DNA of 58,742 nt, the filler included, from Catajapyx aquilonaris (taxonomy: Eukaryota): the NCBI GenBank assembly GCA_000934665.2. It is 2 parts of 2 records of this genome, joined end to end, with 100 filler letters (N's around TTAATTAATTAA, not from the genome) between each part and the next. Parts side by side here need not be neighbours in the genome. Positions count along the whole stretch, not along the records: positions 29,481 to 58,742 come from JYFJ02004822.1; 1 more part is not named here. One strand, written 5' to 3'. Shown here in pieces: positions 36,700 to 58,742 of the stretch. The position numbers were made by a program, and so were the translations under genes. Under the pieces are notes generated by a model. The model saw only the letters and a list, made by a program, of their open reading frames with translations. It did no database searches and had not been told where the DNA came from. Position 1 is the first letter of the stretch, and each line of letters starts with the position of its first letter.

Positions 36700-37880
36700 A
36701 ATCAATCAATCAATCAATTATTTATTTTACCTCAGGGACAGGTTTCCCTGAGGGACACCACTCCATTACACTGTACGCTTATTTCTGGTTAGACATGAAT
36801 TGATGACATTTGCCAGGGGTGGGGACTAAATACAATTTAATAAACCAATTTGGCTTCACCGGGATTCAATGTGTATGATACATCTGCTTATATCTGTTCA
36901 TGCCATTTGGCAACGTAAGTGAGGAAAGGAACATAAGTTGTAAAATTTGCATTTCTGATGGTTAGTGTAGGATCAACAAAAAATCAGACCTAGGAGGGAT
37001 TGGTAAGTCTCGTAACAAATTTTGATGGCCCCCAGCATACATCGGACATTCGAAAGAGGTGTGGAACCAGTCCTCTTCAGAATCCATTTTAATAGTCCTT
37101 TTTTCTCCCAGCGGTATCCACTTTGATCCAATCTGAAGACAGGCCAATAGTCTGCATAAATTTATCTGAATTTGCTTTCCTGTGTAATAAGAGGGAAAAT
37201 ATCTATGTTTATCATAGTAAAATTGTGCCTTTTCTCTATTCCTATCCAATTTTTCAAGACAGTCAAGGTCATTTTTTATTTCCACATCTAACATCGTTTG
37301 GGTTAGGGATACATATTTTTGGAGCCAGCAGGGGTCATCCTTCGTCGTAAAATTTGTGATTGACTGGCCATATTCATTCCGAAGGAAATCTAATTGTTTC
37401 GTCCAGTTGAAAAGGGTTAAGGAGTATGATTGTACAAGTAAATACTTCATCTCTCTGTGCGGTAATCTATGTGAGTCCATATTCACAACTGTCTTAAGAT
37501 ATTTAACTGGGTGAAGGAAAACTTTGACTTTAAGTGGTGGGTGGCCAGTTTCTAATCTCATTAAATAGCCAGCCGTTTGTATACCTGTAGCAAGTAATAT
37601 TTTAATAGCTGTCCCTTGTATCCTGTCTTAAGTTTTTTAGTCCATTTAGTCCCCAGATAGGAGAGCCATAGTTCGCCGATGTTATAACTGCCTTGTCGAC
37701 ATATTTTAAGGTGGATGCTAGTGTGGGGAGCTGGGCTGAGACATTTAATACTGTCACCACCTTACTTAACCCTATCCATCATCTCATTCGTAAATAGACC
37801 GGATGAAGAAAATTTTACTCCGAGATAAGTAAATGACTTGGCAATCTCGATAGGTGTGTCATCTATTGTAAATTTTTTGG
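36700..37880 (-). mobile_element. 5'-truncated, degenerate non-LTR retrotransposon (CR1/L2/Daphne- or RTE-X-like)
   Basis: End-of-RT motif SFTYLGVKF near 37820, ORF 36962..37561 with EDWFHTSFECPMY (CCHC remnant), 3' hairpin CCTCAGGGA/TCCCTGAGG, AATAAA and an (ATTG)n tail at 36700-36718. Confidence 0.8.
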
Positions 37881-38328
37881 GGAATTTACTCCTACATTTC
37901 AGCTTTTGTATTTTTTTCTGGCAAAACACTCATGCTTGTTTGAAACTAAGAATCTCGAGCTATCGAGTAATGTCGCAATTTTTTCTAAAAGCCAACATAT
38001 GTTAAGCTGCATTTACATGGAAGTAATTTGACGAGCAAAGCAGAGTGAAGTCTTCGCAGATGCTGAAATTAACAATCAATTTTTGCCTCAGCCAATATTG
38101 GTTACTCAGCATCAGCAAAGACTTAGGTCGTGAAGTTGCTCACAGTAAACCCAGCTTTAGACATATGGGAATGTAAATGACAGGGAAATTTGTGACATTT
38201 TTGGATGTACAGTGCTGGACACATTAGCTGTCTCTGAATGTTTTTTTTTCCATCTGCGATGGCGCGCGTGACCTGGCAACCCCGGCCGGCGGGCCAATGC
38301 AAACACCAGCACATGGAGAGTGCTTATA

Positions 38329-38923
38329 CAGGGTGTATCAGAGTCACGGGTCAAGAGGGGGTGGGGAAAAATCGTAGGTGGCGACTACCCTGGTCGGTTT
38401 TATAAAACAATTAGAAATACGGCAGTAATCAATTTATTTATTACGGGCGTATGGCGTGAATTGAGCCTGGTGGGCACGGCAAATGCAAGGCAAGAGTGCA
38501 GTGGTTTGAACGTGTTTGAAGCTGGTTGAATGTGTTTTTAGCCTTGCTGGTTGCACTGAAAAAGGCGCTCTCATGCTACACCGGCAGGGTACTGTACAAA
38601 GTAGTGTACTACTGTATGGTGGTGTGCTCAGTACTCTGCTAGTGTAGCATGAGAGCGCCTTTTTCAGTGCAACCGGCTAGGCTAAAAACCCGTTCAACCA
38701 GCTTCAAACATGTTCAAACCACTGCACTCTTGCCTTGCATTTGCCGTGCCCACCAGGCTCAATTCAAACAGAAAGGACGTGACGTCACGCAATACGGCCG
38801 TAATAAATAAATTGATTACTGCCGTATTTCTAATTGTTTTATAAAACTGACCGGGGTAGTCGCCACCTACGATTTTTCCCCACCCCCTCGCGCGCGCTTG
38901 ACCCGTGACTCTGCTACACCCTG
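38329..38923. mobile_element. 595-bp foldback MITE of Tc1/mariner type
   Basis: Inverted arms of about 265-295 bp, termini CAGGGTGTA(T/G)CAGAGTCACGGGTCAAG, TA on both flanks (38327-28, 38924-25). Confidence 0.95.
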
Positions 38924-41566
38924 TAGTGTCCTTTCCATTGTTGCCACTGTTTACAAATCGAGGGAGTGACGCGGACGACCCAGCGACGGGCCTCTTCTGC
39001 CTGCTTACACATCAGTAGCAAGGGATATGCAGGGAAAGACGGGAAAATAATGATGTTCGACGCAAGTCATTTTGGGGAAATGTACGTTCCCTGCTGGACT
39101 TTAGTGAGGGCTTAACTTCCGAATTACTTCGCCAATGTATGGACGGCCAGAATGTGCGATTTATGTGTTTCAAATATATCATTAGATAGACAAAGATTTA
39201 CACCATCCAGGGTTCACATCCAGGGGAATTTTTTGGCCTCAGAAAAGCGTCATAAAAAATTCACTTTGCGACGTTATTGGGTAATGGCATGACTCTACAC
39301 TGACTGTATATTAATTCGGCCCATTTTCTCATTGACAGGTTTTGCAAGTACTGCATGTGCTGCCAAAGCCCCAGACAATGCTGCCATTATGCCAGCAAGC
39401 TTACCAACTGATGCCTGGGTTTGGCTGGACTTTGAGCTTACTGCCGTCAGGTCAAGAAACTGGATGCTGGAGGGTGGTTCCAGAACTGACATTGCCATAT
39501 GTCAACATAGAGAGTCAATTATCTTCGTCCTTTGGTCAAGCTGTCTTCTAGACTCTAGAGTTTTACCTGAATGGAGTAACTAACCTATTCATGTGATACC
39601 TACCGTGCCTTGCTCCAGTCCCGTTCCCTTCTTCAAGCAGATCCCTGCCAGGTTTCCATTCAATTCCAATCTACAGTCCTTGCTAACAAATGCTTGACAA
39701 AAAAAGGAGATGGATCCTGAGAACATCTAACACTTTGTAAACTCCAATGGACTTGGTCAGTTGGTCTAACTTCTTGCCAAAGGTTTTGACATAGGATGTT
39801 GCTTTAGGCATGGTAGCCACACCGAACTGGTAGTACTTGCTGCTTTGAGTTGTTGTGTTTCCAATGTGTCAGGAAAAAAACTTAAAATCAGTAATATAAG
39901 AGATGACTTGAGCCAAAAAAAGAAAGAAGAGAGAACCATACTGGAGGACTGAGAGGAAGGACTTGGCGGGGCAACATGAACAGAGAGGGCTTTGGGACAG
40001 TGGGGAAGGGAAGGGCTTCAATCCCCCAACCATCAAGAGATCCCTTGCGGGATGCTGGCGGTGACAACGTGAGGGTGGCAGTTGGGAAGAAGACCCAGGG
40101 GCCTAATCCACGCCTTCTCCTTGTTCAAGACAAGATGCAATACACACTGTTGCTTCCTGGAAGGCTCAAGTCTTCTCATATACCACTAAATAACAAGATG
40201 TAATCAAAAGTTGGCAAGCACATGAGACAAGCTGCTGCATTATCTGCATTGGGGTCAAATATCACCTTTGGCGGGGAGGTATGGGAGCCGAGATGGAAAC
40301 GTCTCGCCTTGCTGAGTGAAAGGTCCTAAGTTCCATCTCCGCGTGGGATTTCCCTTTCACCTGCGTCAGGAGGGTCTCTGACCCGTACCAAGGAGGTGTC
40401 CGGCAACCTAAACTCCTGGGGAACAGCACATGACCCCTTTTCAGCACTTGCACCCTTGTTCCCTCCCCAAAAATACATATCCTTACCCAGTGTCTTTCAT
40501 TCCCTGCTCCGGAGTTAGAAAATGGAAAATATGGAAATATGGTGGTAGACTGGTAGTCCACCCCCCAACATTGACACTGTCACATGGGGTACATTTTTAA
40601 AATATTTTATTTTATTATTATTATTTTTAAATAATTTTAAACCTTGGGCTACATGTTGAATGTGAAAATTCCTGTGTATGCCCAAAACTAGCATCAAAGG
40701 AAGGTCAGTGGCAGTGACCGACATGCCCTCTTGTCTTGGTTGACCAAGCACACATGAAACACAGCTTGTGCTGGCTTTCTGATTCCCATCTGTATTTGTT
40801 TTATCGTTGTTGTAAGCATGGGTCAAGAACAACTCATATTCCACATTCCAAATGTGGGTTCAACAGTTGTCCCACCTTTGCATATTCTAGTACCCAGATA
40901 GCCACAGTTAAATGATAGGTGGTGACAACATCACGTAGAGGTCAACTTTGATTCCACCTTTATTGGTTATGGTGGCATATGTTTCAAAAACATGCGTGGT
41001 CATAAACCAAATATTTGTTCATAATAATTATACTGAAAGTTGTTGACCTGGGTTTTAAAAATATCGTACTTGACTACTCAGATGATTATAGAGGGGTCAA
41101 ATTTTGAATAATTTACCTGCAAGCTATTTGGCTAACATATCTCAAGGGTGTTGGGGTATTTTACCCTTGAGTTGTACCGTTGTTGTGGTGTAATGTAAAA
41201 GTTTTCTCATTTGATACAAGAATTTTTCTGTGTATTACAAACTGAAGCTACAAAAATTTTATCATTTTGTCTAGGAAAATGCGTCATCTTGACACACTAA
41301 TGCCACATTTAGGATGTGCCCTGAAACACCGAGGCGTGCCATATGACATATATCCATTGCACACAGAAACAAAATCTCACATTTGACACACTAACGACAC
41401 ATCCGTATGGAAAGAGGGCAGGCCAGCTTTGCATGTATACTGTCATTGTCCAGACCTCGGCGGCTGCGGCTTTCCTGGGGCGTACTGTACATATGGAAGG
41501 CTTACCCTTGCCACATTTCCTGCCAGTCTGCTACCTCTCTTCTCCGTGGTTCTTTTGCTTCTTGCC

Positions 41567-44102
41567 TCACCCGCTGCATTTCTGTTTTGTTCCGACACGG
41601 TGCACCTGCTGGCTTAATAGGTCTGGGGGCATGCTCTTCCGTGCACCTCCTGCTCTTCTGGATTTTCGTGTCTCGATGATGCCTCCTCCTTGCCAGTATT
41701 CACTGTCTATTTTTCCATATGATCTCTTATCGGGTGCATGCTCTTCGAGAATTGCCAGTCTCTTCAACGACCGTAGAACTTCCTCAGGAGCATTCCACTT
41801 ATTGGTTCCAAAGTATTCTCTTTTCATAACATTCTTATTCTCCAAAGCTGCAAGAGCAAGAAAACATTTCCGTCAGTGCATTAAGTCAGGCCTGAATATC
41901 GGTGATACAGAATATTGGAATGATTACTAATCAATTAATTATTAGATTTTAGGTGATTATTTATTTTGAAGTGTTGTTTGCAAGGTTGCTGACTGATCGT
42001 GGAATAAAACTGCAATACCACATTGTGTAATCACACCTAATTTTAAGATGTTCAATGACAGGATATTTACTGCCCTATTATTAACACAGCCGAATTTTTA
42101 CCTCCAATTTAGAGACGTTTCAACAATAAATTGAGAGACTTCATAATATTACGCTTCAGTTGTTGACCATACCTTGGGAAGAAAACCAATTGATGTTGCC
42201 ATGCTTCTGGACAACTTCTCCTAAGTGGTTTCCCATGATATGCATGTATGGGGTGACTCTCTTCCTCCCATATTCCTATAGCGTCTCCGCCTAGCGAAAC
42301 GAAGTCTGATAGCCATTTTTGGACCGCTTCAGCAACAGCAGCAGGTGAATCCACGGACATTTTGTGGAATAGAGAGTGAAAGTCCTGAAAAGAAAACGGC
42401 CATGTCACGGAACCATAACATAAAGGAGCAATTTAGTCAGCAGGAGCTACAAAATGGAACATGCAGACATTTAAGAAAATGGAAAATGTGCAGAGAGAAG
42501 TGCCCATAATTTCAGAACCGAACACCACTTTTTCATTCATGCCTACTTCTCTTCATCATTACCAGACGTCGCAAAACGGGTCGCTGTAAAAATTCTTCTG
42601 TATAATTGAATTAGCTGCAGTTAATTTACTTACATTCCAAAGGTGTATCACTCGCTGGGATGTCTTCTCCAAAATTATCCCTCGCAGCTTGGCAGGCAGT
42701 TTTTCCAGGAGAACACTCCTATCCTTTCCTGAAAAATAAAGCAAATCGCAGATTAATTTTATCTTTTCTCCTCTAGATTGAAATTGTAGAGCTGTATTTG
42801 TAGGAATATTACGTACCTGATATGGTTGTCCATTTGTCTTTCCCGCTCGGAGAAAAAACAATGGCAACACCACAATCACTAATTGCATTGGTCAGCTTCT
42901 GGACAGACGTCAGTCCACTTTGTTCGTTAACATCTGCCCGTGAATCACGTTCTTCACAATCTGTTACGACGTTATCTAAGAGTCTGTCAAAAATCCTCAT
43001 CATTAAATGTAATGTGTCAACAATGTGGCATTCTGGTTCAATGGCAAAAATGGGCAGGTGTTGGACACAATTCTTGACTTCAACATAGTCCTGTCTTAGG
43101 TTGTGAAGGATCATTTTCTCGACATTTGGCTGCTCCGTGCGCCACAAATTGTCATTGGACACTGTACAATAGAAGCATGGATGCTTAGAATTTGCACTCA
43201 TAAGTCCTAATACAATAAGTAAGAATTTCATGTCTCCTCCAATTACGAAATTTGTATTCACAAACTGTTCATCGAGCACTACGCCACCTGATGATACTTA
43301 TTTCCTTGGCAATATCAGAAGTTGCTGCTTTTAGCACGGTGTACTTCTCCTTTTCTTCAATAATCGTGACTGTCCGGTGTGTTGAAACTGATTGCATGTT
43401 TTGCAGGCCGTCCAATTCTAGGTGAAGTCCAGTCCAACTTTTGAAGGATGTTGTTATTCGTGCAGCATCCCCTTCCAATTTTACAGTCACACTGCCGATT
43501 TCACTTGGTGCCACACCTCTCTGCTTACACAAAGTACGTATACACTCACATATCGTTGGAGTAATAGACTTTAGTTGAGAACCACGAATGGTTCCAGGTA
43601 GCTTGCACATAATTTGTCAGATCGAGATGTTCTCGGCATAACTGCAATAGGTTCCACTTTGGTAATGTTGGGTTTGTCTCACAGAGCGTGAACCATGTTC
43701 TTGACTCATGAATTTCGCCTCCATTATGTGCCACTCCCCCATTATGGACAAAAATGAGGCACGCACACTACTTACAGGCACGCCTCCCGTGGTATGACTG
43801 CATACAAATATTCCTGAGGGAATGTAGTGGGCTGCATCGCCGAATCCTTTGAATAGAATTTCCTTCCCATTCTTACCATGCATTTCATCTTGATAGGGAA
43901 TGAAACGGCAACCCCATCGCCCAACCGCATCAAGTTTTCGGTTTTTGTCGGTGTGGAATTTAATTGGTGATAGTGATGCATCTGCTGTTTGTGCCTTATG
44001 GAGGTTCACTTGTGATGCCTTGCTGCGGTATGATGGCTTGACATGGGGAAGGCTAGGTGCTTTGTCTGTGGCATCAAACATGTGGGCAGAACACGAGGGC
44101 AT
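41567..44102 (-). pseudogene. Intron-containing Transib/RAG1-like DDE transposase, frameshifted
   Basis: Motifs in RAG1-core order: VKLEGDAAR (D), GGDMKFL (D), CFYC, IVDTLHLMMRI, VTPYMHIMGNH, FSSQ/ALENKN (E). GT-AG introns at 42729-42816, 42385-42633 and 41848-42172. Frameshifts near 43280 and 42270. Confidence 0.8.
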
Positions 44103-44577
44103 TGCCTTGTCAGCAACACCTGCAAATGAGGAGAGTTTGAAATGTTTACTGTCATCATCATATCGAAAGGTTTTTTTCCCATCCCTGTAACCTCATTCTA
44201 AGCTGCTGAGAATTTGTCAAAAGAAAACACTGCGGCAGTCACCTAGCGCCATTTTGATGGATTTTCAGGTCACTTGAAGAACCAAAAACCTGGACGTGTC
44301 ATTATTCCGAAGAAGAATCCTACCATAACCAAAGTTTGCACAATGGTAGTGCCTCATGTTCGTATCACACTTAGGTACCATTTATGTTTTTACCACTCAT
44401 GACCTTGAAGGTATTGCCCTCAACAATGGTTAGACTTGTGCTGTTTTCTTCGAAATCCTGAAATATATCAGTACAAAATATTCTTCCCAGTGTGTGACAA
44501 TCTTTATTTCCATTAATCTGACTCTTTCAAGTACAGCATAATATTATTACACGCCCATTGCCTTGCATGATGCCATC

Positions 44578-46374
44578 TCAGCTGCTGTCTGCTTCCTCGT
44601 CTTCCGACTGACTGTCATGTCCCTCGGCAACCAAACTCCGATAATATGCAACACTCTGTGGCTTTCTCAAGAATGGGAAAAGCCCCAAGAGATCCCGTAG
44701 CTTTCCTGGTTTGATGGGTACAGGACCCCAGTAGAGAGGTGGGAACATGCTGACATCACCTTTTGTCTTTTTCCGGATTGTACAAGTTTGCCATGGGCCA
44801 TTATATGAAAACCTTACGTCTACTGTGTTTCTCTTCTGCGCTGTGTACCTAATCATTCTGATGTCTCTTAGTTTCAAGGGAGGTCGCGGAGTGTTCAAAT
44901 AATGTGGCTTGAGAGCTGCCTTAATATCGCAAAACACATTTCTCTCAGGCTTCACGAGTACAAAGGCGGAAGGTTGCTGTCTTGCCGTTACAACAATGTC
45001 ATCCCACTCATTGGGTGTTTCAGCAATATGAGTTGCACGGTGTCGAGAGATCAGTTGAAAGTCTTGATCATTAGCCATGAATGAATGGCCTCTTATTGGA
45101 TAGACATGTAATATTGATTTTAAGCGATTCTCAACTGTAACCAAATGATGTAGTAGCTGCACAAGTAGCCTACATAGTTTTTGTTTTGTGCGGCACAACC
45201 ATCACTAAGCAAAACCAGTGACTCGCATACCCTGTACTTCCTTGTCATCATGGGTAATTAGATAGGAAAGTAGGTTGATCAGCTGGAGGCTGGTGTTGTC
45301 AGTGTCTTCTGAAACTGTGTTCGTCAGGAAATGGCGCAGTAGAGATGCAACTTCATTTTGGCCTCTCCTTGCAAAGTCTTCAGAGTAAGTGTACATGTGC
45401 ACGTCATGTGTAAGGAGGTTATGGATGCCAAAAACGTAGACCCAGAGTAGCCTGGCATAGAAAATCTTGTTCGTGGTCAAATTTGGGCAAGGTAGGTTCT
45501 GCATGAAATCAAACGAATAACAAGCAATAGTTGCATCTTTACGTGCCTCTTGTACTTCATGTCTGCGAATACCAAAGAAAGCCTCAGCTTTCTTCAAATG
45601 CAAAGATTGCTCGCGTTTTATGAGTGACCTAGAAGCATCCGAATCAGCATTTTCTAGGCGTACTGACAACTCGTCACAGGTGGAACATGTGTCACTCCTC
45701 GGGGAACCGAAGATGTTAAACTTGTTCATGAACACACGGTAGTACTTATCATAGGAGCAAGACAACTGCGGATATGCCTCTTTGAGCATGTGGTACATTT
45801 TGTTTATGTTGAGGGCTTGATGCAGGTAAATCCGATTCCTGTTTTTGTGGGTTGAATAGTGCGATTTCCTGGCAGGAAAGGATGAAATGTGATCCATGAT
45901 GGCTTTCTCTACACGATCTGAATACTTATGAGGATGATGTCCATGTTTTCCTCTTTTGTCTACAGGAGGTGAGCCCGTGTTCCACAATGAGTTGCGAATG
46001 CGACGAGTTCGTCCTGCGGTTATTCCATGTAACGCCATGAATGCCTTCACACACACTTGCTCCTCTCTGCCTTCCTCCAGCTGGACCTATACATCACAGA
46101 AAAACGCATTTCAATATTTAAGTAATATCACCCCTGACATAATCATCTCGTCACTGTCACAAAAATTATATTCAAGTCAATGATTATATCTCACCCTGTA
46201 TCTGGCTGACATTGCATGAGGCCTGGCCAAGACTGATGTGTCAGCATCACTGTTGCTGTCCTCTTCATCAGTTGCATTGACCCTGTGTCGTGGTCGTTGG
46301 CGTGCAGCTTTTTTCCAGTTATTTGAACCAGAGTAAGCCTCTCGCATAGTGCCTTTTCCATAGGTGTGAGACAT
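44578..46374 (-). pseudogene. Sola-superfamily DDD transposase, disrupted
   Basis: VCVKAFMALHGI, DKRGKH, HISSFPARKSHYS, PRSDTCSTCD, SFDFMQNLPCP, LSDGCAAQNKN (shifted frame near 45200), GHSFMANDQDF. Intron 46087-46194. An apparent insertion of about 70 nt at 45230-45300. Confidence 0.88.
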
Positions 46375-47439: not shown

Positions 47440-47530
47440 CCTCAATGTCGACTGAGAGCTCCTGTGTGTTGGAGTCAGTGCTTTGGCTGGCCCTTGGGGT
47501 GGTGCGATCCCGTAAATATGGCAGATTGTC

Positions 47531-47767: not shown

Positions 47768-47829
47768 ATTGCGCTACGCCGCTACACCATGTGACTGCAT
47801 GAGAGATTGAGAGTAATGAGAGATGAGAC

Positions 47830-49275: not shown

Positions 49276-49714
49276 GAGTTTAAGAGAAAATAATATAAAT
49301 ATGTCATATCATGTAAGTAAAATTCAGGTACATCCTTGTAATTAACAGCCGGTCTGCCTGTGCACATGATGCTTACTTTGTAAACAGTTTATAGCTTACT
49401 AAACAATAACAGTAAGCCTTGCTGATCTCCTCCACGACTTGGGACAACCTCTTCTGGTGCTCCTCGAGGGTCGCTGTAATAATGTCAAAGGCACGCAGCG
49501 GGGACGAAGCAGGATTGGAGTAAAAGACAGACTGCCAAACGAGAACCTTACAGTTCAAGAGATATATTCCCACTGACGTGCTTGAAGAAGAACAGCGATA
49601 AGGAAAACAAAGAGTAGTGAAATGGGTATATTACAGCTAGCATCCCTTTCATTCTGACCCCCACAGTTACAGTCACCATAACTAAAATCACAATTAGTTA
49701 CATGGAGAAATGGG

Positions 49715-50758
49715 TCAAGGTTCATCCTGAAAGGAAAACACAATATTTGCCTCCTCTTCACTAGTAGTTGCAGCAGCCCGAGGTCCACCATAAAGAGAAG
49801 TCGAGTTCATGGTCTTCGCCAACATTTCTTTCGATGGGGTGAATGTTGTACAGCACTTGGACGATGCCTTTACAGACTGAGACGCCAAAAGAGTTCCACA
49901 GATGGTCTGCGTAACTAGTCTGTTACGGGTCCTTGTCTTCACCAAGTTGATTTTGCTAAAGATTCTCTCGCAGTCGGCATTTGAATGCGGGGCACTTAAA
50001 GCACTCAACGCGAACTGGGACACCGTTTTGTACTTCGGTTCTCCTCCAGAATCACAAACTTGTCCTATCTGGAGCATTAAAACAAACAAAATGACAATGA
50101 GGGATAGATATGATAATATTAGACCAGCAAGCAATATATTGCAAAGGATAATACAATACCTTATGCCAGAATAAATAGATTTCTATTTTCCTCTTCAATA
50201 TCTCGGGGCAAAATGTCCTGCAGAAGAAGACGCCACTCATCGTCCACCAGCTGCAGGTCATCTGGAGCAGCTCGTTTTACTTGCCTTGTTAGTGCTGCCA
50301 AAGATGGCGTCTTTTCCAGCTGCAGCTTGCAGAGAACATTTTCTGGCCTTAGGACAGTGATGTTGCGGAGAAATTCATCCGTAAAGTCAAATCTCTTCTG
50401 TATTCCTTTACACATGTTTATCAGGAATTTGAGGCACTTTGTGTGGAAGTCGTTCAGGAGATCTCTTCTGGCCATGACCTCTGGTCCCTTCAGCAGCTCA
50501 TCGACTCCCACACCCAGGTAAATCTTTTCGGGCCTCAGAAAATGTTTTGAGTCGTCTGGCTGTATGGCATTCAACGGCGTTGTTGACACATAGTCATACT
50601 TCATGTAACATTTTAGGAGGTCCTTGAAGCTTGCTTCCATTCGTTCCATTAGGTCAGTGATGACGACCCTTTCTGCCTGAAAGTACTGGTTCATCTTTGT
50701 TACCTTGGGAAGTACAAACTTCAAAAATGAATAGTACAGCTTGGCAAAAGGGGTCCAT
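49715..50758 (-). pseudogene. C-terminal half of a hAT transposase including the dimerisation domain
   Basis: KLYYSFLKFVLP, IYLG, IQKRFDF, DDEWRLL, FWHK; intron 50069-50159; ALSAPHSNADCERIFSKINLVKTRTRNRL. Confidence 0.9.
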
Positions 50759-50760
50759 TA

Positions 50761-52511
50761 CATTAGCCACGGAACTTCCGATTTTGAGTTGCTCAGATAG
50801 CCTGTTGTGAATCTGTTCCAATGGTCTATCAGATTTTCGCAGGTACTGTCTAATCGTCTGCATGTTGTTTTCAAACGGGAAGGCACTGAAGGAGTCCACA
50901 GATCCAAACCGTAGCACATCGTCCGCTAAGTGAAGAAGGCCATGAACATTGTAAGTCACATTCTTACTCCCGTATAATTTTGAAAACGTTTTCACAAAGT
51001 ACGTGAGCAGGGCCTTGGCATACCCATTGAGGGTGACGCAATGCCGTGGACTGGCAAGGATTGTCAGAGCTACATGTATTGTCAGGAACAGCTTGTAATG
51101 TACCGTGGTTAAAGCGTCCTTCAGTATCACGGGCCCAGTATACAACACTAACATTCTGAACTCGGTGGCTTTCCACAATTTCACCCAGCGAAAACTACGC
51201 GGTTTTCGGGCAAAATCCCATGGTACACACTCACTTAACCTGCCCGTGGTATCGCACGTATTTTGCAGCGAGTGAAAACTCCGCCGACTGTTCGATTTTT
51301 TTTTCAAGCCACAAATTTACTAGCGAGCCACGCCCAAGCACAAAAGGTGCATGTACTCGTAGGGGAAGTCCTGTACCATGTCCACAGAGAGTCTTTCAAG
51401 AATAGAATCCCCATGGTGGTGACCAGGGTCCCTTTTATCGCGAAAGTCTACATCTGTCCGCAGGGCAGCATTATTTCCCCAAAAAAACCACTCCTCCACC
51501 TCGACCTTTGAGAACGTACGTGCCCTCTACTCGGCACTTCGTGCACCCCTTCTTTCCTCCGTGGCCTTTCACGCGTTGTATGAAGGCTCGTGCCGGGGCA
51601 TCACAAATGAATCCTCTGATTCGTACCCGAACTGGTTTTCCGTCGATGTTCACACCATTGTCATGTAATATCTCGGCTTCTTCAACAAAAGCTCTTAAAA
51701 AGTCATTGCTACTTTTCGGTTTTCCCTGCCCGTAATACACGCCAATAATGAAAGGAGTGGCGACTGTAGCATTGGCTATGTAGCCTTGAATTGGCCACAA
51801 ATTTGTACCGTTGCTATTATACACAGTAAGGCCATCTACACTTACCATTACAAGCAATTCTTCTGGAATATTTGTCTGTTTTCCTAGAACAAATGTTATT
51901 CCTTCTTTCAGGCCGAAATGATAATATTGCCTGGGTTCCATTGGTACAATGTGTGTGTGGGCTTTACGAGGCATGGCGAGCAGTGTGCGCGGATCACATG
52001 GAAGAGAGGAGAAACACGAGTGCTGTCGCAGCCAACTCAACAGTCCTTTTAAAGTGGTATGCGGAACTTTTTGTTGCACCGCCCATGTCGCCAAACCCTG
52101 CCTCATTAACTTTTCCTCTGATGGCTGTAGTGGAAGATTTAACCTGGAACCACAAAAGTCCTCTTGGGACGGTTTTACTAAGGAACTTTCGCTTTCGGGT
52201 TCCTCAACATCGTCCAATAAGCGGGACTCTTCTTGCCTGTCGTTATTGTCGTGAGCTGAGTGAGGGGTACTACAACGTGAAAGTGACATTGGTAGATCTG
52301 TTGGTGATACAGTATCTCCTGCCATGGATGCATCAATTTCACATGTCGGCTGTGAGTCACACTTGGTGCGTTTATCTCTGCATATGTCATATTCATGCAA
52401 GCATGCATCTGTAGCTCGCTTAGCCCTAGCGTAAATGGACCTACTAGAATTGCCTCTTCTATTTGACATTACGAGTGCGTAACACTTGCTGAGGGTGTGC
52501 AATGTAAACAA
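50761..52511 (-). pseudogene. CACTA/EnSpm (CMC) transposase, frameshifted and 3'-truncated
   Basis: LPCDPRTLL, VSVDGL, LWPI, FICDAPARAF..VKGHGG..GCTKC, FPYEYMHLLCLGV, FARKPRS..WKATEFR, YNVHGLLHL, SAFPFEN. Confidence 0.92.
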
Positions 52512-53097
52512 CTATTGGGAGGGAGAACATTCAGGATGGTATGTGGGAACCAACAATTATTTCCTGAATTTGGCTGTGACGCACCGTACGTCTGTGTGAC
52601 GTCACAAAAACGCGGTAGCTTTTGAATATTATTGAAAATTACGCTGCTGGAACCCCCCCCCCCCTCCAGATGCCTGTCCCCCCCTCCCCAATCACAGTCG
52701 GCATTGATAAAATATGTCCTGCAAACGCTGCAAAAGACATCTTAAGAGAAAAAAGACATTTAGGTTTTAGCAAGTTTTAGGTACCATATCTTTTATTCCA
52801 ACACAATCATGCAATTATAAACTCAGCTAACAATACAAATATACCCTTTTACAGGGACAACATTGGGTAATACTTGCGGTATCTACAAGGGTGGTTCAAT
52901 ATACAGTGTCTGCTGCAACAAGTCATACCAGTTTTCCATCGTGGCATTTTCGCGACTCAGTGAGCCAGTATCCGGTATAACTCTTGCGCGCTGTTGCCGG
53001 CAGCTCCCCAGGGTAAAATAAATAAATAAAATACGTCCAATCTACGGAACACGAAATCCTTACCGGTAGGCCGTGGGCCACCCCTGGGCCACGCCAG

Positions 53098-53345
53098 ACT
53101 GACTTCATTCAGTCGCCTGTAGTCCAGGCAGAATCTCCACTGCCCATTCTTCTTTCGGACTAGCAGGACGGGGGCACACCAATGGCTCTCGCTCTCTCGC
53201 ACAACCCCGGTGTCCTGCATCTCCTCTACCTGCCTCCTGATTTCTTCTCGGCCCTCAGCATGCACTCGCCTCGAACGCTCCCTCACAGGAGGGTGGGACC
53301 CCGTTCTGATGTGATGCTGAACAATATCCGTGCTTCCAAACAGCA
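53098..53345 (-). pseudogene. Ty3/gypsy reverse transcriptase N-terminal fragment
   Basis: HHIRTGSHPP...IRRQVEEMQDTGVVRESESHWCAPVLLVRKKNGQWRFCLDYRRLNEV. Confidence 0.92.
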
Positions 53346-53829
53346 AGAACACACAATAGTAATGTGTGACACAGAATTTGTGAAAAGGAGCCTTCCAGAA
53401 TTGGACGAGTTTTACTTTCGGTATTTCCTGCCACTACTTGCAAGAAGGCAAGAGGTGCGTCTCATGTTGTGGTGGGTTTGTGGGCCGTGTTCATGAATAT
53501 ACGTTATCATTCTCCTAATTTTGATTTTTCAATATTCACTCCTCAAACAGTTACTTAATCAATAAAATCAACATAAACAGGTTTCACAGTGCATTTCAGT
53601 CACATTCCTTATCTTTTATAATAGGTGGTTGGGAATTGACCAACACACAGCACACGTGCGTTATTCTGTCCATTTGTGACATAAGCTCACTTGGGATACT
53701 TACATTTAAAATGTTGAATATTTTAAGTCTTTGTATGACTCTCTCCACATGTATTCTAACTCAAGCTATTTCATAGGTTTTTCTCAGATCATCTGATGAA
53801 AACTGGTGAGATCCAGATGCAAATGAACA

Positions 53830-54440
53830 CCATCGGAACTCCCTTGATCTGTCTGTGTATAATGTGATGGAAACTAATTGTCGTACCTTTTAGATAGACT
53901 TCCAATAATTTGGCAAATGTTCTAACAGACATTTTTTCTGCATTAGCATCACAAGTTCTATACGTTGCAAAGAACTGAACCACCTCTTTCTTCAATCTAT
54001 CCAGTAGAAGGTTCGGATAGAGTGCCTCTACATCAAATGTGACCATTACATAATCCTCTGATAGTCTTTCCGGTAGCTGAGCCACCATTCCTTTCACATC
54101 ATCAGGGTCAAATAATCTATATCTGACCAGATATATAAGCGGTCTCAACACATACAGCAAACATCATTTACTCGACCTGTGATAGATTTGATGCCCTGTA
54201 TGATTGGCCGCACCTTCAATTCAGAGATATCATGTTTAATTTTATGCAACTTGGGCATGGCATACAATAAAGGGACTGTATATATTTGTCCATATGGATT
54301 AACTTCATTGTCATAAAGCACGTGTGACTAAGTCAAAAAAATCTCCATATTTTTCTTTGATTTAAGGATAGGTTTAAGCTCTCCAACCATACTAATCATC
54401 TCAGCGCATCGTGATCTAGTACTTTCCGACAAGGGCTTCC
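53830..54440 (-). pseudogene. Penelope-like element reverse transcriptase fragment
   Basis: PLLYAMPKLHK...VRPII (54200-54280), MVTFDVEALYPN and RQIKGVPM. Ends before the YxDD motif. Confidence 0.85.
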
Positions 54441-54474
54441 CCTCTATAAAGTGCGACGTGAAAGAGAAGGGGGC

Positions 54475-54600
54475 CAGCAACAAGTTGAGAAAGTCGGAAT
54501 CTGTTGTAATATATGAATCACTACTACTTCCACCGTATCCCTTGGATATGAAGGATATCATGCCATCTGGTGTAATGGCAATCAAATATTTTGCAGTGAA
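54475..54600 (-). pseudogene. ISL2EU (PIF/Harbinger-group) transposase fragment of about 40 codons
   Basis: [40 protein letters not shown]. Confidence 0.8.
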
Positions 54601-55299
54601 AGTGCCTTTATAATGGGGAAAAAAATGTTTACTTTCTCGACAAAGTCAAAGGACGAGAGCGCGTTAGCCTCATGTTGGTTGAGGCCGTTGGTTGTGCATA
54701 AATCATGCGCGAGACTTGTGATACGATCCTTGGTTGTGTTTACTGCTTCCGGCCATTTTGTCCGCTTGTTAATTTTTGGAGTCAAATATCTTGACTCGGG
54801 ATGTTTCACCAATGCCTCGACTGTTTCATTGCAAAACTGGTATCGGGCTCGGATTTCTGATGGCCTGTACTTTTCGAAGGTATTCAACAGGGGTCGGAAC
54901 TCATTCATGGCCTGCAATTTGCACATCCGATATAATAGCACATGTCCAAAAATAAATGCTCTTTAACCTGTGTGTAAGTAAACAATGCAAGATATTTCTG
55001 CTGCAACAATTCTAATGCTGCACCACACTCAATGAGTTGCCTTCTGTGGTGCAGTGTTTTCACTTATATCGGAGTGTGTCCAGTGTGGACGGTGCGGGTG
55101 TCCACAGAAGCCCCTCCGTCCAAGAGGAGTCTGCACGTCTCAACCATACCACTCCTGGCAGACCAGTGAAGGGATGTACCTTCCCTCCACGTCCCTTGCG
55201 TCCACCTCTTCGTGTCCAGTCGCGTCCAGAAGAGACCGACAGATGTCCACCTTGCTGACGTGAAAATTCCCAGTTATACCAGGTCCCATTCTGGCACAC

Positions 55300-55800
55300 T
55301 TAGCCATCCGTATGATGCGAGCTTTGCTGACACTGAGAATCTTACCGTACGTGGGACTTTTAGCCAAGGTAAAGAGATCCTTGGTAAAGTTTTGCACGAC
55401 ATGGTTTGCACACTCAATATTTCCCAGTAGCAATCCATATGGTATACCGTCTCCATCCCCAATGAATTTCTTCAACATGAGTCCATATTCCCTTGCGCAA
55501 TAGAGGAACCCTTCCAGGATGATGTCAGATTCCATCTGCGTGGATGGCCCCATCCGGTTGCGAAAGCAAGTATGGTCTCCTGGTTCCTCAACTTTGCCGC
55601 TCTGGCACACACCACACAATACGTGTTTCTCACACCAAGATGTAGAAGTTTCTTGGCATGAAACTCAATGACAACGGCGCGTCCGGACTTCGCAGTATAC
55701 CGATGGCCGCAGGAACGCTGGCACCAACCGCCATCCACAACTGCAGTAGTCCGCGAGTGTGTGGCTTCATTCCATAACATCCGGTCATCCGCCATTCTCT
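55300..55800 (-). pseudogene. Kolobok-type ('Mutator-like' domain) DDE transposase fragment
   Basis: VDGGWCQRSCGHRYTAKSG, LGVRNTYC/GVC, HTCFRN..GPSTQMESDIILEGF, FIGDGD and IECANH, across a frameshift. Confidence 0.75.
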
Positions 55801-55878
55801 CTCTAAAAGATAATGTACTGATCATGATAATGTAAGTTAATAATATATTCATGGGGAGGAGAGACAATAAAATTACGA

Positions 55879-55885
<7 letters not shown>

Positions 55886-55951
<66 letters not shown>

Positions 55952-56345
55952 TAGATATACCCCGTGATAGAGCCATGGGCTCTCTTAGGGGAGTGGAAAA
56001 CCACTATGTGCAGGGACAGAGTGGGGATAGGAGGGGGGGACACTGGTGCATGTGCAATGTCATCAAGTTGGGGGTCGTGTGCAGTCCCTCAGGGGGCCCG
56101 TTCGCCAAGATGACCCCCTAGATGCGAGTTAGAAACCCCCGACTAACCCGCACCTTCTCCAGGACAGGGAGAGGAAGGAAGCGGCTGTGGCCTATTTTAC
56201 GGTACGATCCCGGGAATTATTCCTGGGGCGACCTTGGAAAACCACAGAATAACCAAGGTCAGGACCGCCCGCCTCCGGGACTCGAACCCAGGACCTCCCG
56301 ATTAGCAATCGGATACCAAATCCCCTCCGCCACTACTGCTTCGGT
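55886..56345 (-). mobile_element. tRNA-derived SINE with long (TAA)n tail
   Basis: B box GGTTCGAGTCCC, same head and core as 34671-34901, (ATT)n tract at 55881-55950. 16-bp TSD AAATTACGACATTATT at 55870-85 and 56346-61. Confidence 0.92.
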
Positions 56346-56776
56346 AAATTACGACATTATTCATTGTTGTGCCTAAATATTGCAGTTTTCTGTACACAAG
56401 AAAGCTGCTGTGAAGGGTAATGTTTATCAAGACAAATTGCAATTATTCAAGCCGGGAGAGACTTGCTGTCTTTATCGTATGAAAATGTAACTATTTATGG
56501 ATGTGTTCCTACAACTCATCCTGGATGTGTGGTGTAATGGTATGTGAAACACGTCCTTTATTGAATGGGATACATTCCAGCATATTTGCATTGTAATGCA
56601 TTGTAATTGAAATATTCGCAAATGTGTAGCCTTAACACAACATGATTATGCCAAAACAATAATCTAGTTAGGAGGCCATTGACTGTCACTATCGTTATTA
56701 TTTAAAGAATATTGTAAAGTAAATAACCTGAAGAAATTAACAAGCAAATGTGCACAAAAATTAATTTCAATGTGTA

Positions 56777-58742
56777 GGGGAGAGCGGGGATGGTTCGGAC
56801 ACACAACGGATTATAATTTTTTAACAATGTAAGAGTATCACTCACAATAGAGATGCTTGTATGAGTACAAGGTAGGTCCTCTGGCTCCATATTTTTTCCA
56901 TTGCCATGTTTCTAAAATCACCGACCCATGACTTATGACATCAAATGTATGACAATGTCGATCGTCCGAACCATCCCCATACGCGGGGTTACTTCGGACA
57001 GAGTAAGACGAAGGTCCAAACTGGTAAGAAAAAATTGGAAATTTGTATTTTATATTTTTATTATCTGCATATTATACCGATAAAATAGGCTAAAGAGCCG
57101 GGCAGGAATGGCGATGTAACCTACAGGTGGCGATGAATTAGAAACAGCGCGTTGATTGGTACTTTTGCCGCCGAAGCTACTTCACTCTTCCTGTCCGGCA
57201 CTGTAGGCCTACAGGCAGTAGCCTACAAAGGCGACAAAGTTTTTTGTTTACAGTCAGCGAATGTTAAAGCCGCTGAGGTCACATGGAAACCTTTTGAATG
57301 ACTGTACCCTCTTTGATCCTCCACAGGACATAGGAGGTGGGAGTAGTAACACAAGTGACTCTTTTGCCACAGAATGGATATCTGGAACATTTGGCTCTAT
57401 AAACGCATTTGCCACTTTACTGCTCTTTCGAAGGTAGCTAACATCAGCAAAGTCATCATCATCGGCATCATTTCCTTTTAGAATTATGCTTGCAACATAA
57501 AATACATCATCTTTTCCATTCCCTGAAAATTTCACCAATACATAATCTCCTACTTGTGCAGCAGTGACGTCTTTAACGTCTGGCAGAGGGGCGAAGTCCG
57601 AGAGTGAGTCATCTTCAGTATCAGAATATTCTTGAAAACTACCATCTGAGTCAGAGTCTTCTTCAGAACTGTTAACTGAATCAGAGGATGATGATTCAGG
57701 TTGCTTTTTGGACAATCTTTTTCCAGAAGTTGATTCCTGCTTGCTGCCAAACGTCAACTGCTTTGGTTTCGGACCTTTCGTATAACCGATTTTCTTAGCC
57801 GCCTTCTCAGCAATCAAATCCTTCTCGGGTGTGACAGTCGCTATCATGCACTTACCGCGCTTCCGTCCTCTTGTCGATAATTTCCTTGCTGGAGCTTTTG
57901 GAAATGGGCGTATGTCTTCTGGAGACGCAAATGACTGCGTGGTGTCTTTTGAGGATGTTGATGACGAAGGCATCGGAGATGTTGCAGATGTTTCAGCTCG
58001 ATACTCTGTTTCAGGAGGAGAAGACACATCCATATGCTCTTCATTAGGCATTGGACGATCAGTAACGGAAGATGGCAGGAAGTCTAAGTCAGTGAAAATA
58101 GCCCTGTCAAATGGAAAAATCCCAGTGCACCTAAACCCTGACTTGATATTGACAGGAGTCGCCCCCCTGTCCCAGGCACTGTGAGCTATTGTGGCAATAT
58201 CATAGATTGTTATGGCCTGTGCTGGATGGGACAGCATCCATGAATCAACACCTTGGTTGTAAAAGGTTTTAAATGGCCCAAAAACAGTTCTATCTAAAGG
58301 CTGCAAATGGCTGGAAGTGTGAGGAGGCAGCGTAAGAATAGTGATGCCATGGCTCTTGGCATATTCAATGGCTTCTAGCGACAGATGAGAATCATGGTTG
58401 TCCATAATTAATAGGACTTGATTTTCAATGGAGCAACGAGTATGCTTAACAAAATGCTCTAGGACCCTAGGAAAGTTCTCCTTCGTCATCCACCCTGAAG
58501 GATACACCAACCCCAAGGATCCGTCTTCTGGGACGCCATTTAGCATGCGCTTTTGATCGAAACGCACTCGGGGAAAGACCCACACTGGAGGAAGAGCCAC
58601 TCCATTTGCTCCTATTATTCCTACTTGGGTAACAAGCTCTCCCCATTCCCTGGACGTCACTTGACCAACTTGATGTTGGCCTTTCCTGCCCACGATCTTT
58701 GGCACCTTTCCAACGGTAGTAATTCCAGTCTGAAATGTATAA
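56777..58742 (-). mobile_element. pogo/Fot1-like DNA transposon, 3' part with terminus
   Basis: TA + GGGGAGAGCGGGGATGGTTCGGACA terminus, with subterminal copies of the motif at about 56964 (inverted) and 56984. Contains the transposase exon. Continues beyond the window. Confidence 0.8.
57254..58729 (-). CDS. pogo-family DDE_1 transposase (DD35D), last exon, frame intact
   Basis: Acceptor catttcag then TGITTV...; SGWMT, LIMDNHDSH and QPLD with 35 residues between the two D; acidic C-terminus. The first catalytic D is presumably in an upstream exon outside the window. Confidence 0.92.
   Translation of the reverse strand, partial: TGITTVGKVPKIVGRKGQHQVGQVTSREWGELVTQVGIIGANGVALPPVWVFPRVRFDQKRMLNGVPEDGSLGLVYPSGWMTKENFPRVLEHFVKHTRCSIENQVLLIMDNHDSHLSLEAIEYAKSHGITILTLPPHTSSHLQPLDRTVFGPFKTFYNQGVDSWMLSHPAQAITIYDIATIAHSAWDRGATPVNIKSGFRCTGIFPFDRAIFTDLDFLPSSVTDRPMPNEEHMDVSSPPETEYRAETSATSPMPSSSTSSKDTTQSFASPEDIRPFPKAPARKLSTRGRKRGKCMIATVTPEKDLIAEKAAKKIGYTKGPKPKQLTFGSKQESTSGKRLSKKQPESSSSDSVNSSEEDSDSDGSFQEYSDTEDDSLSDFAPLPDVKDVTAAQVGDYVLVKFSGNGKDDVFYVASIILKGNDADDDDFADVSYLRKSSKVANAFIEPNVPDIHSVAKESLVLLLPPPMSCGGSKRVQSFKRFPCDLSGFNIR

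What the first reader, a model, noticed from the sequence alone, without database searches (positions are those of the whole stretch)
36700..58742. Strand-polarised 'one of each' transposon library: candidate flamenco-like piRNA cluster built mainly from DNA transposases
Seen: LINE, Transib/RAG1-like, Sola, hAT N-terminal, Harbinger, mariner, hAT C-terminal, CACTA, gypsy RT, Penelope RT, ISL2EU, Kolobok-type, SINE and pogo pieces all lie on the minus strand within 22 kb, almost without repeating a family, and the pieces are mostly coding sequence. Under independent random orientation, 14/14 has probability 2x0.5^14 (about 1e-4); counting one possible + strand tail at about 53000, 14/15 is about 1e-3. 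Established: Drosophila flamenco is a uni-strand cluster of co-oriented antisense TE fragments, dominated by gypsy-group LTR elements. Inference: one + strand transcript here would be antisense to about eight DNA-transposon lineages and four retroelement types, acting as a broad immune-memory locus in a non-model arthropod.
Basis: partly seen in the sequence, partly recalled or inferred. Interest (0 to 1): 0.9.

Follow-up and report, generated by a model that had tools for sequence, protein, structure and literature searches.

The report
One-strand array of transposon remnants
About a dozen broken jumping-gene copies from many different families all point the same way in a 22-kb stretch of a probable arthropod genome, which is the layout of a one-strand piRNA (genome-defence) locus, but no RNA data could be obtained and chance is not excluded.

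Summary
The core observation holds. In 36.7-58.7 kb, every transposon piece whose direction I could determine lies on the minus strand: 11 supported pieces, 1 unclassified decayed gene and 1 motif-only RT-like ORF. None of the 158 plus-strand ORFs scanned gave any Pfam hit.

Several labels did not hold:
- Transib/RAG1, mariner and hAT N-terminal were not confirmed, and Penelope rests on motif recall only.
- Pfam calls the "Kolobok" piece Mutator-like.
- pogo-type and DDE_Tnp_4-type pieces each occur twice.

A copy of the same SINE lies on the plus strand 2 kb left of the chosen boundary. The quoted P of about 1e-4 ignores the search for a boundary and a window. A same-strand run of 11 or more is expected 0.3-3 times by chance among the ~316 windows read from this genome.

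The piRNA-cluster reading stays untested. It is my leading explanation (about 0.35), ahead of chance (0.3) and a giant host intron (0.2).

The locus fails the Gypsy-dominance criterion of true flamenco-like clusters. It sits closer to the mixed-TE uni-strand clusters described in Tribolium. The scan noted a similar array on other DNA of this genome (e1-7506408).

The parts
36965..37627 (-). LINE (APE-type non-LTR) ORF2 fragment: the region just after the RT domain, 5'-truncated
   Evidence: 14 representatives at E 6e-7 to 9e-4; 8 of the 14 hits were scanned; all 8 carry RVT_1 (2 also endonuclease domains), upstream of the matched stretch in 7 of them; tblastn 37118-37627, E about 1e-9 to 1e-12. 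Support is moderate.
38327..38925 (.). Palindromic MITE-like element with long inverted arms; it has no orientation
   Evidence: arms 138 nt at 94% and 105 nt at 96%.
42812..44192 (-). ORFs of 191 and 115 aa sit in one frame split by one stop, then a frameshift leads into a 162-aa ORF.
   Evidence: ORFs. No Pfam family above noise, with only DUF1258 at E 0.021. No PDB hit. No homologue by word search. No match to the CACTA profile. The AlphaFold model had pLDDT 35.
44581..46086 (-).
   Evidence: Pfam DUF7869 at E 0.0033, below cut-off, and 0.011 on read-through. Atlas features 0.92-0.93 to DUF7869 clusters.
46237..46527 (-). Second pogo-type piece: a short C-terminal module only
   Evidence: tblastn of pogo homologues, best E 9.6e-10, query residues about 446-540 of about 640.
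47777..49388 (-). PIF/Harbinger transposase gene. It keeps a 223-nt GT-AG intron (48072-48294) that joins the two DDE_Tnp_4 halves in phase.
   Evidence: DDE_Tnp_4 profile 43-117 (32 bits) and 116-158 (25.5 bits), plus weak HTH_Tnp_4. The intron was read from the sequence.
49718..50757 (-). hAT transposase C-terminal part. The dimerisation domain is in 49718-50182; the upstream ORF 50164-50757 is unassigned.
   Evidence: Dimer_Tnp_hAT at E 5.2e-6, above cut-off. No Pfam or PDB hit for 50164-50757.
50786..52295 (-). CACTA/EnSpm-like (CMC) transposase, residues about 33-538 of about 670, with one frameshift near 51500
   Evidence: 39 homologues, E down to 2e-44, some carrying PF02992, PF13960 or PF16064. 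tblastn.
52960..53433 (-). Ty3/gypsy reverse transcriptase, N-terminal fragment only
   Evidence: PDB sequence search: Ty3 RT 4ol8 at E 7.7e-8, Ty3 Gag-Pol 7q5b at 3.6e-7.
53599..54645 (-). Profile 17-69 lies at 54331-54645 and profile 116-158 at 53599-53760.
   Evidence: 47.2 bits; 44 bits. The two DDE_Tnp_4 elements are not alike by BLASTP. The middle ORF has no Pfam or PDB hit, an atlas lead to a cluster with RVT_1 in 19% of members, and a model with pLDDT 39.
55143..55768 (-).
   Evidence: PF20700 at 50.1 and 46.8 bits. Ank at 22.5 bits.
55886..56345 (-). tRNA-derived SINE with an (AAT)24 tail, flanked by an exact 16-nt direct repeat (55870-55885 and 56346-56361). It inserted beside the Mutator-like piece.
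   Evidence: Direct repeat D13. (ATT)24 at 55880-55951. Alignment to the copy at 34.7 kb. blastn 80.7% over 192 nt, inverted.
57257..58742 (-). pogo/Tigger transposase, residues about 185-690, an open frame of 495 aa that runs off the window end
   Evidence: DDE_1 at E 8.3e-18. 1683 homologues, best at 49% identity over 99% of the query. tblastn.
34672..34857 (+). Outside the claimed interval: a copy of the same SINE in the opposite (plus) orientation
   Evidence: ARAGORN tRNA-like head at 34679-34750 plus. Rfam tRNA at 28.2 bits, just below gathering.

Best explanation
This is a transposon-dense stretch built by repeated insertion and deletion. Copies that lost one or both ends can no longer move and have piled up. 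The complete co-orientation is most likely kept because the plus strand is read as one long non-coding precursor. Insertions antisense to that precursor yield piRNAs able to target transposon mRNAs and are retained. That makes the locus a uni-strand piRNA cluster in the broad arthropod sense.

Shown here: the pieces, their families, their common strand, their truncation, and the absence of host domains.

Inferred: transcription, its direction, piRNA production, and selection on orientation.
For: - 11 supported pieces plus one unclassified decayed gene are all on the minus strand in 36.7-58.7 kb. None of the 158 plus-strand ORFs scanned hit any Pfam family.
- The pieces are diverse: 6 DNA-transposon groups (DUF7869-type, pogo, PIF/Harbinger-type DDE_Tnp_4, hAT, CACTA, Mutator-like) plus LINE, Ty3/gypsy and a SINE.
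- They are independent DNA-level insertions, not one duplicated unit. There is no nucleotide similarity among them. The SINE has its own target duplication. The Harbinger gene still carries an intron.
- No inverted-repeat pair brackets any coding piece, so these are end-less remnants.
- No non-transposon Pfam domain above cut-off lies inside the array except one ankyrin repeat.
- Composition is polarised. T exceeds A on the plus strand in 25 of 30 one-kb bins from 28 kb to the end, after a turn of the cumulative skew near 28 kb.
- If a cluster keeps 85% of its pieces antisense, 11 of 11 is about 170 times likelier than under random orientation.
- Strand bias alone predicted real one-strand clusters in Drosophila (PMC10643416 methods passage; PMC11400887 passages).
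- Uni-strand clusters holding LTR, non-LTR and DNA transposons are reported for Tribolium (review PMC9962485 section 5.3 passage). About 90% of somatic clusters are uni-strand in Aedes (10.1101/2022.08.22.504762 section 5).
- An unchecked note of this scan describes a similar array elsewhere in this genome.
Against: - There is no RNA evidence of any kind.
- Boundary and window were picked after the fact. A same-strand run of 11 or more is expected 0.3-3 times by chance among 316 windows. The same SINE lies on the plus strand 2 kb outside the boundary.
- Polyadenylation-signal and donor-like motifs are as frequent on the plus strand as on the minus strand. AATAAA is 14 against 14, so there is no sign of selection for an uninterrupted plus-strand transcript.
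- Only 22 kb is visible, while flam-like clusters span 227-1085 kb.
- The pieces have no close relatives in what I could search. The best pogo hit is 49% identical over the full length and CACTA hits are 38-41%. No look-alikes turned up in other scanned windows. Any piRNAs made here might therefore have no living targets, although this coverage is thin.
- Aedes core clusters are TE-depleted, so uni-strand clusters need not look like this.
Confidence: 0.35

Rival explanations
1. This is an ordinary, untranscribed or irrelevant transposon graveyard. The same-strand run is a chance outcome that a reader scanning many windows was bound to meet.
For: -: P for a run of 11 or more is 0.001-0.01 per window holding 11-30 orientable pieces. 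That gives 0.3-3 expected among the ~316 windows read from this genome, and hundreds among 250,000 windows.
- The run ends as soon as the next orientable element to the left is included: a plus-strand SINE.
- PAS and donor motif counts are symmetric.
- Another piRNA-cluster claim in this genome failed profile checks (note e1-7594389, unchecked).
Against: - 11 of 11, or 12 of 12 with the unclassified gene, is still a 0.05-0.1% event for one pre-specified array.
- A second such array is noted in the same genome (e1-7506408, unchecked).
- The AT-skew polarity extends over about 30 kb, beyond the coding pieces.
Confidence: 0.3
2. The stretch is part of a giant intron, or a read-through tail, of a plus-strand host gene. 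Insertions in the sense direction were removed because they disturb splicing or polyadenylation, which left antisense copies.
For: - Other notes of this scan describe gene-free stretches of 30-60 kb read as giant introns in this genome (e1-7497223, e1-7506292 and others, unchecked).
- The cumulative AT and GC skews change sign around 24-30 kb. This could mark diverging transcription units, though it is confounded by TE composition.
Against: - The known intron bias is moderate and mainly concerns LINE and LTR elements. That paper excluded DNA transposons, and most pieces here are DNA transposases.
- At 60% antisense, 11 of 11 is only 3.8 times likelier than under chance.
- No plus-strand ORF with any Pfam domain exists anywhere in the window.
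- The only exon-like long ORFs outside the array (7.6-11 kb) are on the minus strand and unassigned.
Confidence: 0.2
3. The mosaic was assembled by a directional capture process that inherently gives one orientation and mostly coding sequence. Candidates are template switching on transposon mRNAs, or Helitron or Pack-type transduplication.
For: - About 71% of 42.8-58.7 kb is coding remnant, by my sum of the part coordinates.
- Fragments abut within tens to hundreds of bases. The CACTA match ends at 50786 and the next ORF starts at 50757.
- No terminal inverted repeats bracket any coding piece.
- That captured fragments in Helitrons tend to be co-oriented is recalled, not checked.
Against: - The Harbinger gene keeps a canonical intron, so it is a genomic copy and not a cDNA.
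- The SINE has its own target duplication.
- No Helitron Rep/helicase or any other carrier domain was hit in the 566 ORFs scanned.
- DNA transposons are mostly coding sequence in any case.
Confidence: 0.04
4. This is an assembly artefact: a chimeric or collapsed contig that strings together reads from different transposons.
For: - A 100-base spacer sits at 29381-29480: 44 N, then TTAATTAATTAA, then 44 N. It shows the window is a scaffold joined from pieces.
Against: - There is no N inside 36.7-58.7 kb.
- 86-95% of the sampled 31-mers of 44-54 kb are present in contigs of four DNA runs. These come from one sample and one study, probably the assembly's own source, so they are not independent.
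- A mis-assembly would not orient unrelated transposons alike.
Confidence: 0.03

Closest known systems
flamenco and flam-like unistrand piRNA clusters of Drosophila (van Lopik et al. 2023, PMC10643416; FlaHMM, PMC11400887)
   Same: A TE-dense region with nearly all fragments on one strand. In Drosophila, strand-biased TE content alone has been used successfully to predict such clusters (passages).
   Different: In those clusters the bias and the content are driven by Gypsy-family elements and the clusters span 227-1085 kb. Here Gypsy is one 0.47-kb RT fragment among mostly cut-and-paste transposase genes, and only 22 kb is visible. Promoter, expression and piRNAs are unknown.
Uni-strand piRNA clusters of Tribolium castaneum (as reviewed in PMC9962485, section 5.3)
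   Same: These are arthropod clusters enriched in LTR, non-LTR and DNA transposons, described as uni-stranded, with 70% of transposon-mapped reads antisense (passage). This is the closest match in content.
   Different: Those clusters are defined by small-RNA data and this locus has none. I saw only the review's passage, not the primary paper, so their fragment-level orientation is unknown to me.
Mosquito core uni-strand piRNA clusters made by transcriptional read-through (Qu et al., bioRxiv 10.1101/2022.08.22.504762)
   Same: These are uni-strand source loci with captured elements in antisense orientation. They offer a possible mechanism, namely read-through from an upstream gene (abstract and section 5).
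   Different: The 25 Aedes core clusters are depleted of TEs apart from a slight LTR enrichment, and they archive viral fragments. No upstream plus-strand gene is identifiable here.
Antisense-biased transposon content of long introns (Zhang et al. 2011, PMC3088655)
   Same: Co-orientation relative to a long transcription unit is produced by selection against sense insertions (passages).
   Different: The bias is documented mainly for LINE and LTR elements in mammals, it is partial rather than complete, and DNA transposons were excluded from that analysis.

Membership tests
flam-like unistrand piRNA cluster (Drosophila sense) | TE-rich region with a strong strand bias of TE fragments | tested here: met
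   11 supported pieces plus 1 unclassified gene are on the minus strand and 0 on the plus strand in 36.7-58.7 kb.
flam-like unistrand piRNA cluster (Drosophila sense) | Content and strand bias driven by Gypsy-family LTR elements (PMC10643416 passage) | tested here: not met
   There is one Ty3/gypsy RT fragment of 474 bp. The other pieces are DNA transposases, a LINE tail and a SINE.
flam-like unistrand piRNA cluster (Drosophila sense) | Size of hundreds of kb (227-1085 kb) | tested here: inconclusive
   22 kb is visible. The pogo gene runs off the window end at 58742. The left limit lies between the scaffold spacer at 29.4 kb and 36.7 kb.
uni-strand piRNA cluster (any animal) | Abundant 24-31 nt, 1U-biased small RNAs from one strand only | not testable with these tools
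   No RNA holder was listed.
uni-strand piRNA cluster (any animal) | Long single-stranded precursor transcript, with TE fragments antisense to it | not testable with these tools
   The direction of transcription is unknown. Motif counts give no strand signal.
PIF/Harbinger transposase (47777-49388) | DDE_Tnp_4 domain above Pfam's cut-off | tested here: met
   32.0 and 25.5 bits against a cut-off of 24.8. The halves are joined across a GT-AG intron.
pogo/Tigger transposase (57257-58742) | DDE_1 domain and full-length pogo-type homologues | tested here: met
   65 bits against a cut-off of 22. 1683 homologues at E<=0.001; the 120 listed all carry PF03184, several also PF05225 or PF03221.
CACTA/EnSpm (CMC) transposase (50786-52295) | Homology to proteins carrying Transposase_21, DUF4218 or DUF4806 | tested here: met
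   39 homologues, E down to 2e-44. PF02992 in 1, PF13960 in 7 and PF16064 in 2 of the 39 listed. The window's own ORFs reach only E 0.053 for DUF4218.
Ty3/gypsy reverse transcriptase (52960-53433) | Sequence match to the Ty3 RT fingers/palm region | tested here: met
   4ol8 at E 7.7e-8 and 7q5b at 3.6e-7. Pfam RVT_1 was not hit.
Transib/RAG1-like transposase (42812-44192) | Match to the RAG1 core or Transib transposase | tested here: not met
   No Pfam hit to any RAG1 model at E<=5. No PDB match at E<=1 or E<=10. That the PDB copy holds RAG1 and Transib chains is recalled. No homologue by word search.
Penelope-like RT (53792-54163) | RT domain of Penelope type | tested here: inconclusive
   No Pfam or PDB hit. 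The atlas gives a lead of 0.93 to a cluster with RVT_1 in 19% of members. The model was unusable at pLDDT 39. The resemblance is a recalled motif.
mariner (claimed between Harbinger and hAT) | Transposase_1 or HTH_48-type domains | tested here: not met
   No such Pfam hit in any ORF of 38 aa or more. Three proteins carrying Transposase_1 or DDE_3 gave no tblastn hit at E<=1.
Kolobok (55143-55984) | Kolobok-type transposase | not tested
   I recall no Kolobok model in Pfam; none was hit. Pfam assigns PF20700 Mutator-like at 50.1 and 46.8 bits.

The most novel reading that the evidence does not exclude
The locus is a working uni-strand piRNA cluster of a non-model arthropod whose antisense archive is dominated by cut-and-paste DNA-transposase genes from at least six superfamilies, rather than by Gypsy-type retroviruses. 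It would be one of several such arrays in this genome. That would mean the trap-and-remember logic of flamenco has been applied to DNA transposons.
Probability: 0.3. Interest if true: 0.5.

Novelty: new member of a known kind. Interest (0 to 1): 0.3.

Why it matters
If small RNAs confirm it, the locus would extend the flamenco principle beyond flies and beyond retroviral elements. That principle is one transcript, antisense to a catalogue of past invaders. It would also show that strand-biased TE content can flag piRNA clusters in genomes without small-RNA data.

If the genome-wide run-length test shows no excess, the case becomes a useful caution. A perfect same-strand run of a dozen transposon pieces is something a large scan will meet by chance.

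Tried and rejected
- RNA evidence: no RNA holder was listed for 44001-54000. Five runs were listed. Four are DNA runs of one sample and one study. One run of unknown kind holds next to none of the sampled words.
Neither contiguity nor expression could be examined.
- No whole genome is held for this window, so a genome-wide control for strand runs was impossible.
- A six-frame Pfam scan of 3-kb chunks failed, first because of stop codons. It then failed for size when stops were read as X. I replaced it with scans of stop-to-stop ORFs down to 38-40 aa.
- The unclassified gene at 42.8-44.2 kb gave nothing usable: Pfam, PDB, word-based homologue search among longer proteins, comparison with a CACTA profile of 24 sequences, and look-alike search in the scan's notes.
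- Single-sequence AlphaFold models of 42812-43297 and 53792-54163 had mean pLDDT of 35 and 39. No fold search was run on them.
- ORF 50164-50757 has no PDB, Pfam or CACTA-profile match.
- The long ORFs at 7.6-12 kb and 32.5-34.1 kb have no Pfam family above noise.
- Strand counts of AATAAA, ATTAAA and GTRAGT show no asymmetry.
- Pieces in 29.5-36.7 kb were not counted as evidence. These are a hAT dimerisation hit at E 0.037 (31352-31537, minus) and a LINE-like tblastn hit at E 0.01 (33529-33681, minus). Both are at noise level.
- Rejected: that the array is one duplicated composite. There is no internal nucleotide repeat apart from the SINE and the MITEs.
- No supplementary files of any paper were consulted.

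Full report
WHAT THE WINDOW IS

The window is eukaryotic DNA, 41-51% G+C per 2-kb bin, with three N runs. One is a 100-base spacer at 29381-29480, made of 44 N, then TTAATTAATTAA, then 44 N. I read this as a scaffold join, which is my interpretation.

The best named relative of the largest open frame is a crab protein at 49% identity. Other hits come from insects, a spider, a tick and a tunicate. A probable arthropod is therefore reasonable but not shown. No whole genome is held for the window.

CHECKING THE OBSERVATION

I scanned stop-to-stop ORFs of both strands against Pfam.

In 35.7-58.7 kb, 142 ORFs of 60 aa or more were scanned (69 plus, 73 minus). Eleven had a hit at E<=0.01, and all eleven are minus-strand. 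They are:
- DUF7869 (weak)
- DDE_Tnp_4, three times
- HTH_Tnp_4 (weak)
- a spurious DUF276
- hAT dimerisation
- one ankyrin repeat
- Mutator-like PF20700, twice
- DDE_1 with DDE_3

Beyond 42.9 kb, 144 further ORFs of 38-59 aa (89 plus, 55 minus) gave two hits, both minus. One is a second DDE_Tnp_4 C-terminus at E 2.4e-11. None of the 158 plus-strand ORFs in these two scans had any hit.

Controls were blank or at noise level:
- 150 ORFs of 66 aa or more in 1-32 kb gave no hit at all.
- 130 ORFs of 40 aa or more in 29.5-42.9 kb gave only sub-threshold hits at the rate expected by chance.

PIECES THAT PFAM MISSED

- The 346-aa ORF at 51474-52511 has 39 longer homologues, E down to 2e-44. Some carry Transposase_21, DUF4218 or DUF4806. 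tblastn places residues about 33-538 of about 670 at 50786-52295, with one frameshift.
- ORF 36965-37627 matches the stretch just after the RT domain of endonuclease-RT proteins. It has 14 representatives at E 6e-7 to 9e-4. It is a 5'-truncated LINE tail with moderate support.
- ORF 52960-53433 matches Ty3 reverse transcriptase (4ol8, E 7.7e-8).
- pogo homologues also hit a short C-terminal module at 46237-46527 on the minus strand.
- A tRNA-derived SINE lies on the minus strand at 55886-56345. It has an (AAT)24 tail and an exact 16-nt flanking direct repeat.
- A decayed gene of about 460 aa at 42812-44192 is minus-strand but stayed unclassified.

WHAT DID NOT HOLD

- Transib/RAG1, mariner and hAT N-terminus were not confirmed.
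- "Penelope" rests on a recalled motif and an atlas lead.
- Pfam calls the "Kolobok" piece Mutator-like.
- The "ISL2EU" piece is a DDE_Tnp_4 transposase split in two, with the RT-like ORF in the middle.
- pogo-type and DDE_Tnp_4-type pieces each occur twice, although the two DDE_Tnp_4 copies are unrelated at BLASTP level.

NATURE OF THE PIECES

They are separate DNA-level insertions. Apart from the SINE and three palindromic MITE-like elements, the window has no internal nucleotide repeat.

The Harbinger gene keeps a 223-nt GT-AG intron at 48072-48294. Its removal joins Pfam profile position 117 to 116 in phase. This argues against a cDNA origin.

No inverted-repeat pair brackets any coding piece, so all lack at least one end. 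From general knowledge, cut-and-paste elements that lose an end cannot excise. That alone favours the accumulation of such remnants.

Decay is modest:
- The pogo frame is open for 495 aa.
- CACTA has one frameshift.
- The DUF7869 gene has two adjacent in-frame stops; a frameshift there is suspected but was not tested.

IS IT MORE THAN CHANCE?

Eleven of eleven gives a two-sided P of 0.001, and twelve of twelve gives 0.0005. Two corrections apply.

First, the left boundary was set at the first minus-strand piece. The next orientable element to the left is a copy of the same SINE at 34672-34857, and it is on the plus strand.

Second, the window was picked from many. With 11-30 orientable pieces per window (my assumption), a run of 11 or more is expected 0.3-3 times among the ~316 windows read from this genome. 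The run is therefore real but not decisive on its own.

One independent, though confounded, signal is composition. The cumulative AT skew rises to 28 kb and then falls steadily. T exceeds A on the plus strand in 25 of 30 one-kb bins from 28 kb onwards. I recall that TE sense strands tend to be A-rich, which would give this sign.

INTERPRETATION

The defining evidence for a piRNA cluster could not be obtained. Sequence proxies for plus-strand transcription are neutral.

On priors:
- Uni-strand clusters are common in arthropods. About 90% of somatic clusters are uni-strand in Aedes. Tribolium has 187 clusters holding LTR, non-LTR and DNA transposons.
- Strand bias alone has predicted real clusters in Drosophila.
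- With 85% antisense retention, the likelihood ratio over chance is about 170. With a 60% intron-type bias it is about 4.

Weighing this against the look-elsewhere effect, my estimates are:

| Explanation | Probability |
|---|---|
| piRNA cluster | about 0.35 |
| pure chance | 0.30 |
| giant intron or host read-through unit | 0.20 |
| directional capture | 0.04 |
| assembly artefact | 0.03 |

The intron rival gains from unchecked notes that this genome has gene-free stretches read as giant introns. It loses because the known intron bias concerns mainly LINE and LTR elements, and because no plus-strand coding evidence exists in the window.

COMPARISON WITH KNOWN SYSTEMS

The locus may work like flamenco, but it should not be filed as flam-like. 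In Drosophila the bias is driven by Gypsy elements and clusters span 227-1085 kb. Here Gypsy is one 474-bp fragment and only 22 kb is visible. The mixed-content uni-strand clusters of Tribolium are the nearer model (review passage only).

The scan has already noted a similar array on other DNA of this genome (e1-7506408) and rejected another claim (e1-7594389). I tested neither.

SOURCES SEEN

- PMC11400887, PMC10643416, PMC9962485 and PMC3088655: passages found by term search.
- 10.1101/2022.08.22.504762: abstract, outline and section 5.
- Other titles: search listings only.
- No supplements were consulted.

VERDICT

This is a genuine one-strand array of diverse transposon remnants. It is a reasonable but unproven piRNA-cluster candidate of a known kind, with modest interest until RNA data or a genome-wide control exist.

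Noticed in passing
window 29381-29480: A 100-base spacer of 44 N, TTAATTAATTAA and 44 N looks like a scaffold join carrying stops in all six frames. The cumulative AT skew turns at about 28 kb, close to it, so the polarised domain may begin at a contig boundary.
   Followed up: partly
window 48072-48294 (minus strand): The Harbinger transposase gene keeps a 223-nt intron with a consensus donor (CAG|GTGAGT) and a CATAG acceptor. Splicing would join the two DDE_Tnp_4 halves in phase. The apparent stop at 48291-48293 lies inside the donor site.
   Followed up: partly
window 55870-56361 and 34672-34857: A tRNA-derived SINE family is present in two copies, 81% identical over 192 nt. One has a perfect (AAT)24 tail and an intact 16-nt target duplication, which suggests recent activity. 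The two copies lie in opposite orientations.
   Followed up: yes
window 26966-27774, 35645-35943, 38327-38925: Three palindromic MITE-like elements have long inverted arms, up to 177 nt at 92%. Two of them end in CAGGGTGTA-type termini. A weak mir-304 Rfam match (35780-35857, E 0.047) falls inside the middle one and is probably just its hairpin.
   Followed up: partly
window 7629-12011 (minus strand): A G+C-rich block (up to 54%) holds several long minus-strand ORFs of 150-194 aa. Two of them share one frame and are split only by stops (9886-10461 and 10468-10947). They encode Ser/Pro-rich, disordered-looking sequence with no Pfam hit. This could be a host exon or pseudogene, but equally long ORFs overlap on the plus strand.
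   Followed up: partly
window 55067-55273 (minus strand): A single ankyrin repeat (22.5 bits, just above Pfam's cut-off) lies directly downstream of the Mutator-like fragment. It may be a captured host fragment or part of that element.
   Followed up: no
window 1-24000 versus 24000-40000: The GC skew is negative in 23 of the 24 one-kb bins of 1-24 kb and positive over most of 24-40 kb. Together with the AT-skew turn, this could mark two diverging transcription units or simply different repeat content.
   Followed up: no
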